A stretch of 64,000 bases of DNA from the human T2T-CHM13v2.0 reference genome, Homo sapiens, in the NCBI RefSeq assembly GCF_009914755.1, contig NC_060934.1; one strand, given 5' to 3'. The notes below the pieces were generated by a model, which worked only from the letters and a program-made list of their open reading frames with translations, ran no database searches and had not been told where the DNA came from. Shown piece by piece: positions 41,024 to 48,070 of this stretch; position 1 is the first letter of the stretch; every line of letters starts with the position of its first letter. A program made the position numbers and the translations under genes.

Positions 41024-41817
41024 GGATAAAAAGACAATCTACAGACTAGGAGAAAGTATTTGCAAACCACATATCTGACAAAAAATAGTCTAAAATATAC
41101 AAAGAATTCTCAGAACACAACAAAACTCCAATTAGCAAACAGGCAGAAGTAAAGAGATCTTTCACCAAAGAGATGGCAAATAAGCACATAAAACTGACTG
41201 TCAGTGATGTGTAAATTAAAACCACTACACACTTATCAGAATGGCTAAAATAAAAATTAAAAAATAGCAACACCAGCAAATGCTGGCAAGGATACAGACA
41301 TAGTGGATCACTCATTCATTGCTATTGAGAATGTAAAATGATAAAGACACTCTGGAAAACAGTCTGTCAGTTTCTTTAAAAACTAAATATGCTGAAACAT
41401 CCCTTCTGACAGCTTTGAAGAGAGTAGTGGCTCTCCCAGCACGGAGTTTGTGACCTGAGAACGGACAGACGGCCTCCTCAAGTGGGTCTCTGACCCCTGA
41501 GTAGCCTAACTGGGAGACACCTCCCAGTATGGGCTGACTGACACCTCATACAGCTGGGTGCCCCTCTGAGACGAAGCTTCCAGAGGAAGGAACAGGCAGT
41601 AACATTTGCCATTCTGCAATATTTGCTGTTCTGCAGCCTCTGCTGGTGATACCTAGGCAAACAGAGTCTGGAGTGGACCTCCAGCAAACTCCAACAGACC
41701 TGCAGCTGAGGGTCCTGACTGTTAGAAGGAAAACTAACAAACAGAAAGGACATCCACACCAAAATCCCATCTGTACGTCACCATCATCAAAGACCAAAGG
41801 TAGATAAAACCACAAAG

Positions 41818-42841
41818 ATGGGGAGAAACCAGAGCAGAAAAGCTGAAAATTCTAAAAATCAGACTGCCTCTTCTCCTCCAAAGGAATGCAGCTCCTTGCC
41901 AGCAATGGAACAAAGCTGGATGGAGAATGACTTTGACGAGTTGAGAGAAGAAGGCTTCAGATGATAGGTAATACCAAACTTATCTGAGCTAAAGGAGGAT
42001 GTTCGAATCCATCGCGAAGAAGCTAAAAACCTTGAAAAAAGACTAGACAGATGGTTAACTAGAATAAACAGTGTAGAGAAGACCTTAAATGACCTGATGG
42101 AGCTGAAAACCACGGCAGGAGAACTACGTGATGCATGCACAAGCTTCAGTAGCCAATGTGATCAAGTGGAAGAAAGGGTATCAGTGACTGAAGATTAAAT
42201 AAATGAAATGAAGCAAGAAGAGAAGTTTAGAGTAAAAAGAGTAAAAAGAAATGAACAAAGCCTCCAAGAAATATGGGACTATGTGAAAAGACCAAATCTA
42301 CGTCTGGTTAGTGTACCTGAAAGTGACGGGGAGAATGGAACCAAGTTGTAAAACCCTCTGCAGGATAATATCCAGGAGAACTTCCCCAACCTAGCAAGGC
42401 AGGCCAACATTCAAGTTCAGGAAATACAGAGAACACCACAAAGATACTCCTCGAGAAGAGCAACCCCAAAACACATAATTGTCAGATTCACCAAAGTTGA
42501 AATGAAGGAAAAAATGTTAAGGGCAGCTAGAAAGAAAGGTTGGGTTACCCACAAAAGGAAGCCCATCAGACTAACAGCTGATCTCTCGGCAGAAACTCTA
42601 CAAGCCAGAAGAGTTGGGGCCAATATTCAACATTCTTAAAGAAAAGAATTTTCAACCCAGAATTTCATATCCAGCCAAACTAAACTTCATAAGTGAAGGA
42701 GAAATAAAATACTTTACAGAAAAGCAAATGCTGAGTGATTTTCTCACCACCAGGCCTGCCTTACAAGAGATCCTGAAGGAAGCACTAAACATGCAAAGGA
42801 ACAACTGGTACCAGCCACTGCAAAAACATGCCAAATTGTAA
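41818..42841 (+). pseudogene. Disrupted L1PA ORF1
   Basis: ATG GGG AGA AAC CAG start and C-terminus ...NFQPRISYPAKL...QPLQKHAKL; internal stops and frameshifts. Confidence 0.92.
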
Positions 42842-42904
42842 AGACCATTGAGCCTAGGAAGAAACTGCATCAACTAATGAGCAAAATAACCAGCTAACAT
42901 CATA

Positions 42905-46723
<3,819 letters not shown>

Positions 46724-46934
46724 ACAATGAGAACACTTGGACACAGGGTGGGGAACATCATACACCAGGGTCTGTCGTGGGGTGGGGGGAGGGGGGCAGG
46801 ATAGCATTAGGAGATATACCTAATGTAAATGAGGAGTTAATGGGTGCAGCACACCAACATGGTACATGTATACCTATGTAACAAACCTGCACGTTGTGCA
46901 CATGTACCCTAGAACTTGAAGCATTAAAAAAAAA

Positions 46935-47356
46935 GACTTAGACTTGAGTAGCAGACTTCACATCAGAGTAATTTATTACCTCACAGGGTTCAACAAACAT
47001 TTTAGTTTGTGAACAGTCCCTTAGTAAAGCAGCAGCCTTCATTTAAATTTATCAAGAAAGAGGCCGGGCATGATGGCTTACCCCTGTAATCTCAGTACTT
47101 TGGGAGGCCGAGGCAGGTGGGTCATCTGAGGCCAGAGGTTAAGGACCAGCCTGAGCAGCATGGTGAAAGCCCCGTCTCTGCTGAAGATACAGACGTTGTG
47201 GTACATGCCTGTGGTCCCAGCTGCTCAGGAGGCTGAGGACAAGAATTGCTTGAGCCCGGGAGGTGGAGGCTTCAGTGGGCCGAGATTGCGCCACTGCACT
47301 CCAGCCTGGGTGACACAACGAGACTCTGTCTCAAAAAAATTTTAAAAAAATTAAAT
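46935..47356 (+). other. L1 3' transduction (about 127 bp unique DNA plus an Alu)
   Basis: Lies between the L1PA poly(A) and the downstream TSD copy (aaaaactaaatatgc 41378-41392; aaaaacaaatatgc 47357-47370). Confidence 0.85.
47062..47340 (+). mobile_element. Alu (S-like) with clustered A>G substitutions, part of the transduction
   Basis: Dimeric Alu whose linker reads ctctGctGaaGatacaGacGtt versus consensus ctctactaaaaatacaaaaatt. Confidence 0.93.
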
Positions 47357-47370
47357 AAAAACAAATATGC

Positions 47371-48070
47371 CACTACCGTATGATCCAGTAACTGCATTCC
47401 TGGGCACTGTATCAGAGAAATGAAGACTTGTGCTTACACAAAAATCTGTACATGAATGTTTAGAGCAGCTTTTTGGGTAGTAGTTGAAAACTGGGAACAC
47501 CCTAGATGTCCTTTATTGGGTAAATGGTTTAAACTATGGTTTATCCATACCATGGAATACTGCTCAGTGGGATAAAGGACCAAACTCTTGTTATAGGCAT
47601 CAACCTGGGTGAACCTGCAGAGAAGCATGCTCTGTGAAATAGCCAGTGACAAAACGTTACACACGGTATGATTCCATTTATATAATATTCTTGAAATGAC
47701 AACTTTTATATGAAAATGGTGCAAAAGTAACTAAGGTTTAATAGAAATGCAGACTGGGTTAGTGTAGTGGTTCCCAGGGGTTAAGGGCAGTGTGGGGTTA
47801 GGGGCAGGGAATTCCTCTCCTTGAGGGAGCTAGGTGGGAAGTGGGTGTGGCTATAAAAGAGAAACGTGAGGGATCCTGGTGGGGAGGGGATGTTCTGTCT
47901 CTCCACAGTATCAATGTTAGCATCCTGGTTGTGACATTGTAGTATAGTTTTATAAGATGTTACCTCTGGAGGAAACTAGGTAAAGAGTACACAAGACCTC
48001 TCTGTTTTATTTCTTAGAACTGTATGTGAATCTACAATTATTTCAAAATAAAGTTTAATTGAATAAAAAA
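47371..48070 (+). mobile_element. 3' remainder of the L1MC/L1MD host element
   Basis: cactaccgtatgatccag...ggaggaaactagg...gtgaatctacaattatttcaaaataaag. Confidence 0.85.

What the first reader, a model, noticed from the sequence alone, without database searches (positions are those of the whole stretch)
47062..47340. Candidate genomic fossil of ADAR A-to-I editing: a hyper-A>G Alu retrotransposed inside an L1 3' transduction
Seen: against the AluS consensus (aligned by eye) this Alu has about 12-14 A>G changes on the L1 sense strand, all between 47121 and 47278. They sit at 47121, 47137, 47143, 47158, 47180, 47183, 47186, 47192, 47195, 47213/47214, 47223, 47254 and 47278. Five fall within 16 nt of the A-rich linker (ctctACTAAAAATACAAAAAtt becomes ctctGCTGAAGATACAGACGtt). 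Most have T or A as 5' neighbour. No other Alu in the window shows this, and ordinary Alu ageing is dominated by CpG C>T/G>A. Known: ADAR edits Alu dsRNA in clusters, prefers a 5' U or A, and reverse transcriptase reads inosine as G; APOBEC3 would instead leave sense-strand G>A. Inference: the read-through L1 RNA carried an Alu that was paired with an inverted Alu, hyper-edited and then fixed in the germline by L1 TPRT. This would be RNA-editing-to-DNA write-back, and an edited transcript that escaped retention or decay. Caveat: 47214 and 47254 also match AluJ/other subfamily consensus states.
Basis: partly seen in the sequence, partly recalled or inferred. Interest (0 to 1): 0.9.

Follow-up and report, generated by a model that had tools for sequence, protein, structure and literature searches.

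The report
RNA-edited Alu written into human genome
An old L1 insertion on chromosome 10 carries an Alu with 12 A-to-G changes that its parent copy on chromosome 1 lacks, likely because the RNA-editing enzyme ADAR edited the RNA before it was copied into the germline, and two other retrocopies show the same mark.

Summary
Observation largely confirmed. Window 41393-47356 is one insertion (5'-truncated L1, 131-nt unique flank, Alu, short A tail) between target-site duplications. Its parent is G000:C1:177408658. Polarised with 71 control Alus, the copy has 12 derived A>G among 64 As and 0 T>C among 47 Ts; the parent lineage has 1 and 1. The attached L1 shows 1.2-1.6% A>G (Fisher p=2e-8) and the flank 1 of 46. 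Two listed sites (47192, 47195) are a deletion junction; 47214 and 47254 are real. A four-site genome scan gave 3 hits; the other two are retrocopies with target-site duplications and A>G on both arms of inverted Alu pairs on one strand, which is the ADAR signature. Two predictions failed: the parent has no L1 within 19 kb and no inverted Alu nearer than 10 kb, so the pairing partner and the source L1 are unseen. ADAR editing followed by L1 write-back about 0.87; with transduction from a lost source L1, 0.6. Ten literature searches found no description; the library is partial.

The parts
41378..41392 (+). 5' target-site duplication, preceded by TTT, inside an older L1 fragment
   Evidence: repeated at 47357-47370 with a 1-nt deletion; left and right flanks continue one another in another old L1 of the window (62334-62195, then 62184-61869)
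41393..46925 (+). 5'-truncated primate L1, about 5.5 kb, 3.0% non-CpG divergence from relatives, A>G at background (subfamily label L1PA4-6 is recalled, not tested)
   Evidence: A>G 13 of 820 and 16 of 1297 As; at most 3 in any 160 nt
46926..46934 (+). A run at the L1 3' end; the last 4 As are shared with the start of the parent flank; AATAAA seen in many relatives reads ATTAAA here
46931..47061 (+). unique flank copied from G000:C1:177408658-177408788, including the parent Alu's own 5' TSD; not hyper-mutated
   Evidence: 2 matches of 2 candidates (self and C1, 93%); 1 A>G of 46 As
47062..47332 (+). sense Alu copied from G000:C1:177408789; 12 derived A>G between 47121 and 47278, 7 further parent-A/copy-G sites that cannot be polarised, 11-nt linker deletion after 47191, 1-nt insertion at 47169
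47333..47356 (+). short A-rich tail (cannot tell added poly(A) from the Alu's own tail)
47357..47370 (+). 3' target-site duplication; older L1 sequence resumes after it

Best explanation
The Alu was copied through RNA into this site together with an L1, and its 12 strand-specific A>G changes are likely ADAR A-to-I edits made on that RNA and read as G by the L1 reverse transcriptase, the RNA likely being a 3' read-through from a source L1 that no longer exists at the chromosome 1 parent site. Shown: one insertion with TSD; parent locus; direction and lineage of the changes; confinement to the Alu; background level in L1 and flank. Inferred: ADAR as agent (about 0.87); a duplex with an antisense Alu that is not seen today (a distant one at +10 or +14 kb reached before 3' end formation, a partner since lost, an intermediate locus, or pairing in trans); a polymorphic source L1 that was never fixed. 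Age roughly 20-30 million years (inferred from 3% non-CpG divergence with a recalled rate).
For: 12 of 64 A>G, 0 of 47 T>C, 0 A>C, 0 A>T in the copy lineage; the other changes run like a clock in both lineages (non-CpG other than A>G: copy 6, parent 6; CpG 7 and 7, one of the copy's being a gap-placement artefact). L1 body of the same insertion at 1.2-1.6%, in line with L1 RNA not being edited (PMC5224506, passages). 5' neighbour rates T 4/9, A 5/13, C 0/16, G 3/25 against T 22/39, A 30/67, C 19/82, G 7/67 in four Alus of the other two retrocopies (the latter unpolarised). Two of the three 5'-G sites are GAG, a context enriched in ultra-editing, which also favours sense Alus (PMC3197674, abstract and passages). 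Class evidence: C23:114353991-114355929 copy of C12 (14-nt TSD; 22 of 70 and 18 of 51 As changed on the two arms of an inverted pair, 11 of 430 outside) and a spliced septin retrocopy on C1 (15-nt TSD, poly(A), joined exons; 25 of 71, 13 of 63, 12 of 46 in three Alus, 17 of 541 and 7 of 227 outside; two paralogues show only 3-5). For transduction: the junction in the parent reads AT|AAAAG, an L1 endonuclease-type site (consensus as in PMC5974252); donor L1s can be polymorphic and absent from a reference (PMC6425141, passages).
Against: No antisense Alu within -14.9 kb or +10.1 kb of the parent Alu, whereas average editability decays with a scale of about 800 bp and is at noise level at long range (PMC4066801, passages) and trans editing is at most about 1% (PMC526178, passages). 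No L1 sequence in 39 kb around the parent. No 3'-G preference (3 of 12 versus 20 of 51). Left-arm positions 27/28, changed in the other sense Alus, are unchanged; site overlap with them is not significant once the four sites used for the scan are removed (p=0.37). The single Alu's own fold does not explain the sites. The two supporting loci were found by a pattern built from this Alu.
Confidence: 0.6

Rival explanations
1. Still ADAR, but the edited RNA was a host transcript ending in this Alu (with a spliced-in antisense Alu piece as partner); L1 reverse transcriptase copied about 400 nt and then switched to the poly(A) end of an unrelated L1 RNA at the shared A run.
For: Explains at once the missing L1 and the missing near partner; 4 As are shared at the junction; the changes span only model positions 60-227 (post hoc p=0.026), as a partial partner would give.
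Against: No transcript evidence could be examined; L1-containing chimeras known to me have the L1 at the 3' end, not a whole 5.5-kb L1 at the 5' end (recalled); the junction is also an endonuclease-type site; none of the four antisense neighbours matches 60-227 clearly better than the rest.
Confidence: 0.27
2. A DNA-level cluster from an error-prone polymerase (Pol eta type, A>G after T or A) during second-strand synthesis or repair.
For: Strand and 5' T/A preference fit (9 of 12); needs no partner Alu; an 11-nt deletion lies inside the cluster.
Against: No A>C or A>T among the copy's derived changes, while Pol eta makes these too (recalled); nothing would stop it at the Alu edge, yet flank and 5.4 kb of L1 are at background; in the two other retrocopies the changes follow both arms of inverted pairs and skip the spacer.
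Confidence: 0.06
3. Ordinary decay, GC-biased or ectopic gene conversion, selection for G at edited sites, or an assembly error.
For: The locus was picked by eye from many Alus; A>G is more frequent after T or A in all Alus; G alleles are reported to be favoured at edited Alu sites (PMC7186786, passages).
Against: Binomial p=4e-10 at the L1 rate and 4e-7 at 3%; GC bias predicts T>C as well (0 of 47); rare states shared with the parent are interleaved with the Gs (47136, 47141, 47240, 47241, 47272, each in 0-3 of 71 controls), which argues against conversion from another Alu; no antisense Alu lies within 23 kb upstream or up to the window end, so editing in place is unlikely.
Confidence: 0.07

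Closest known systems
ADAR hyper-/ultra-edited Alu RNAs (PMC526178; PMC3197674; PMC4066801)
   Same: Cluster of A>G on one strand, confined to an Alu, sense Alu, 5' T/A preference, TA sites used.
   Different: Here the changes are in genomic DNA of a retrocopy; the parent has no inverted Alu within 10 kb; no 3'-G excess.
APOBEC DNA-edited retroelements fixed in genomes (PMC4866542; PMC2873906)
   Same: Clustered single-type deamination marks acquired during retrotransposition and fixed in the germline, detected by comparing copy with parent.
   Different: Those are G>A from C-to-U on cDNA, mainly in LTR elements; this is A>G, on RNA, in a non-LTR insertion. PMC4866542 has no occurrence of 'ADAR' in its main text.
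L1 3' transduction (PMC6425141)
   Same: L1, A run, unique flank from another chromosome and tail inside one TSD.
   Different: No L1 at the parent site in this assembly; the carried piece is hyper-mutated; the terminal tail is short.
A-to-G hypermutated retroviral proviruses ascribed to ADAR (recalled, not read)
   Same: RNA editing captured by reverse transcription.
   Different: Cellular Alu RNA copied by L1 machinery and fixed in the primate germline.

Membership tests
ADAR-edited Alu | A>G only, on the transcribed strand | tested here: met
   12 A>G, 0 T>C, 0 A>C, 0 A>T in the copy lineage
ADAR-edited Alu | Template has A at the sites | tested here: met
   parent A at 12 of 12
ADAR-edited Alu | Confined to the repeat, not the flanks | tested here: met
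   flank 1 of 46; L1 13 of 820 and 16 of 1297
ADAR-edited Alu | 5' neighbour bias (T/A favoured, G depleted) | tested here: inconclusive
   T/A 9 of 12 vs 13 of 51, p=0.002; G depletion p=0.33; partly background
ADAR-edited Alu | 3' G excess | tested here: not met
   3 of 12 vs 20 of 51; small numbers
ADAR-edited Alu | Inverted Alu within about 3 kb in the transcript | tested here: not met
   nearest antisense Alus +10.2 kb and -15.0 kb; met in the two other retrocopies
ADAR-edited Alu | Same sites edited in RNA-seq of the parent locus | not testable with these tools
   no RNA data or editing database
L1-mediated (TPRT) insertion | TSD, endonuclease-type target, A-rich tail, 5' truncation | tested here: met
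   15/14-nt TSD after TTT, 24-nt A-rich tail, L1 starting inside its 5' UTR
L1 3' transduction | Unique flank 3' of the L1 maps to another locus | tested here: met
   C1:177408658, sole other match
L1 3' transduction | Source L1 directly upstream of that flank | tested here: not met
   no L1 match in 39 kb; a lost source cannot be tested without orthologues
Alu subfamily diagnostics | Many copies share the states | tested here: not met
   triple motif in 4 Alus of 11 genome matches; controls carry at most 5 of 12; Dfam itself not available
APOBEC-edited retroelement | Sense-strand G>A clusters | tested here: not met
   copy G>A 4-5, like the parent lineage

The most novel reading that the evidence does not exclude
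The human genome holds an undescribed class of retrocopies that preserve germline ADAR hyper-editing molecule by molecule (at least three loci found here), a fossil record of editing tens of millions of years old and a direct RNA-editing-to-DNA mutation route; this member would further record hyper-editing of an L1-carried Alu with no near inverted partner.
Probability: 0.5. Interest if true: 0.87.

Novelty: new variant of a known kind. Interest (0 to 1): 0.75.

Why it matters
A review notes that roles for ADAR editing in Alu subfamily evolution and in suppressing retrotransposition by mutation had not been determined (PMC4982230, passage). Copy-versus-parent pairs like these make that testable: they show that heavily edited RNA can reach L1 machinery in the germline and be fixed, give single-molecule editing patterns from ancestral primates, allow the frequency of edited retrocopies to be compared with editing of the parent transcripts (a measure of how strongly editing blocks retrotransposition), and flag paralogues that can mimic editing in RNA-seq mapping.

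Tried and rejected
Sites 47192 and 47195 rejected (deletion junction). Subfamily explanation rejected. Search for a source L1 and for a near inverted Alu or any other complementary stretch at the parent: nothing; L1 body has no useful complement to the Alu; Rfam on 20 kb around the parent: 0 matches. Fold of the parent Alu alone or with its flank: changed and unchanged As equally paired (0.38 vs 0.37-0.38), longest helix 8-10 bp. Site-by-site agreement with three other edited sense Alus: p=0.022 with all sites, p=0.37 without the four used for the scan; not counted as support. The mirror T>C pattern was meant as a null but is not one, since editing of an antisense Alu gives the same marks; its 4 hits are all on C15. 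A three-site pattern gave 11 hits; the 8 new ones carry 3-8 A>G including the 3 selected and were not traced to parents. An independent four-site pattern gave 1 hit, the C23 copy again. L029 shares 10 nt with the junction only. A large random Alu sample was not available, so the empirical null is 71 Alus from held loci. A Pfam scan of a 46-aa tail piece gave no septin hit; the upstream parent exon did.

Full report
Anatomy. The window sequence shows a 5'-truncated primate L1 from about 41393 to 46925, a 9-nt A run, a unique stretch, the Alu (47062-47332) and a 24-nt A-rich tail. A 15-nt sequence at 41378-41392, preceded by TTT, recurs at 47357-47370 with one base missing, and the old L1 sequence on the two sides continues across the gap in another old L1 of the window. 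The whole block is therefore one L1-type insertion.

Parent. A search of the window's own genome with 46930-47375 gave one non-self match over the whole length, G000:C1:177408658-177409100, 84% identical (40 of 8071 candidates scored); the unique flank alone gave 2 matches of 2 candidates, self and the same C1 site at 93%. The C1 Alu has its own TSD on both sides while the copy has only the 5' one, so C1 is the original. In 39 kb around it there is no match to the L1. The junction in the parent reads AT|AAAAG, which is both an endonuclease-type site and a 4-A overlap with the L1 tail.

The changes. I aligned copy, parent and 71 near-full-length Alus from held loci (self and parent duplicates left out) and assigned each difference to the lineage that departs from the column majority. 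Copy: 12 A>G, 0 T>C, 6 other non-CpG, 7 CpG (one a gap-placement artefact at 47191). Parent: 1 A>G, 1 T>C, 5 other non-CpG, 7 CpG. One site was unpolarised. Apart from A>G the two lineages ran at the same pace. The 12 sites are 47121, 47137, 47143, 47158, 47180, 47183, 47186, 47213, 47214, 47223, 47254 and 47278. Seven more parent-A/copy-G sites match the majority G and were counted as parent decay; some may be edits at A:C mismatches, a pattern described in PMC526178 (passage). Unpolarised counts are 19 A>G, 5 G>A, 4 T>C, 6 C>T.

Backgrounds. The same insertion's L1 has 13 A>G of 820 As in its 3' 2.07 kb against 29 relatives and 16 of 1297 in its 5' 3.3 kb against 4 relatives, with at most 3 in any 160 nt. 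The flank has 1 of 46. Tests: 12 of 64 versus 13 of 820, p=1.8e-8; versus T>C 0 of 47, p=0.001; versus the parent's 1, p=0.003; versus flank, p=0.007. Controls average 2.1 A>G (maximum 6) where the copy has 11. No subfamily: the triple motif occurs in 4 Alus among 11 genome matches, and rare states shared by copy and parent are interleaved with the Gs, against conversion from another Alu. Context: 5' T or A in 9 of 12 versus 13 of 51 (p=0.002); 5' G depletion p=0.33; no 3' G excess; controls also mutate more after T or A.

What does not fit. The nearest antisense Alus to the parent are at +10.2, +13.8, -15.0 and -18.5 kb. Average editability falls with a scale of about 800 bp (PMC4066801, passages), and editing in trans is put at about 1% at most (PMC526178, passages). 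The Alu's own fold does not pick out the sites. At the chr10 site the nearest antisense Alu is about 24 kb upstream. So the duplex partner is unseen, as is the source L1.

Is there a class? A pattern requiring four of the TA-to-TG changes gave 3 hits in the genome: this Alu and two others (a lower bound). The first, C23:114353991-114355929, is a copy of C12:68405890-68407842 with a 14-nt TSD; it holds an inverted Alu pair about 650 nt apart, with parent-A/copy-G at 22 of 70 and 18 of 51 As on the same strand and 11 of 430 outside; polarised, 15 and 13 are copy-derived. The second, on C1 near 196.40 Mb, is a spliced retrocopy of a septin gene on C7 (exons 11 kb apart joined; Pfam Septin E=1.4e-13 for the parent exon; the name SEPTIN14 is recalled) with a 15-nt TSD and a poly(A) tail. 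Its two sense Alus have 25 of 71 and 13 of 63, its antisense Alu 12 of 46, the rest 17 of 541 and 7 of 227; two paralogues of the same parent stretch have 3-5 per Alu. Only the four pattern sites in one Alu of each locus were selected for; the second arms were not. A>G on both arms of inverted pairs, on one strand, skipping the spacer, inside RNA-derived copies, is what ADAR predicts and what DNA-level processes do not. This shows that the route exists and raises the odds for the target, which lacks a visible partner. A looser pattern gave 11 hits, 8 new and unresolved; an independent pattern found only the C23 copy again. Site overlap between the target and the other sense Alus is not significant without the selected sites (p=0.37).

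Mechanism. Most likely a germline RNA containing L1, flank and Alu was edited by ADAR while the Alu was paired with an antisense Alu, and was then reverse-transcribed at the chr10 site, inosine giving G. I put ADAR plus write-back at about 0.87, split 0.6 for read-through from a source L1 since lost and 0.27 for a template-switch chimera with a host transcript. Pol eta-type clustering gets 0.06 and the rest 0.07. Non-CpG divergence of 3% (60 of 2068; 92 of 3053) suggests 20-30 million years by a recalled rate.

Literature. Ten searches of the held library listed no paper describing ADAR-edited Alus fixed in human retrocopies. Read as passages only: PMC526178, PMC2873906, PMC4982230, PMC4066801, PMC9148063, PMC4866542, PMC5224506, PMC5974252, PMC6425141, PMC7186786, PMC7353975; abstract, outline and passages: PMC3197674. 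PMC4982230 says such roles had not been determined; PMC5224506 found no editing in more than 2.5 kb of expressed L1 RNA. A 2011 Nature Communications paper on DNA editing of retrotransposons and a 2003 paper on 3' transductions were not held and are recalled only; subscription papers and all supplements are unseen and could contain these loci. Verdict: real feature, new variant of a known kind, interest 0.75.

Noticed in passing
L059/L066 (G000:C23:114353991-114355929, minus strand); parent L065: 1.9-kb retrocopy with 14-nt TSD that begins at the first base of an Alu and has A>G on both arms of an inverted Alu pair; a cleaner example than the target.
   Followed up: yes
L058/L075 (G000:C1:196397437-196401319, minus strand); parent L061, L062, L078: Spliced septin retrocopy with TSD and poly(A); three 3' Alus with A>G excess, plus a 5' antisense Alu piece with 7 of 27 marks whose origin was not found in the fetched parent stretches.
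   Followed up: partly
L060 (G000:C15:20269100-20271300); further hits at C15 26.47 and 28.60 Mb: Repeated Alu plus inverted half-Alu units; three minus-strand Alus carry T>C at 8 of 30, 14 of 42 and 13 of 41, but also 22-24 other changes each; possibly another edited unit later duplicated. Parent not sought.
   Followed up: partly
L067:1135-1416, L068:1100-1386, L073:79-351, L074:69-352: Alus with 7-8 A>G including the 3 selected by the pattern; L067 appears to have its own TSD. Could be mildly edited or chance.
   Followed up: partly
window 47058-47059 and 47169, 47191: Two adjacent G>A just before the Alu, a 1-nt G insertion and an 11-nt deletion in the linker, all in the copy lineage.
   Followed up: no
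G000:C23:114318105-114318751: An 88% match to sequence flanking the C23 retrocopy lies about 38 kb away, suggesting a local duplication.
   Followed up: no
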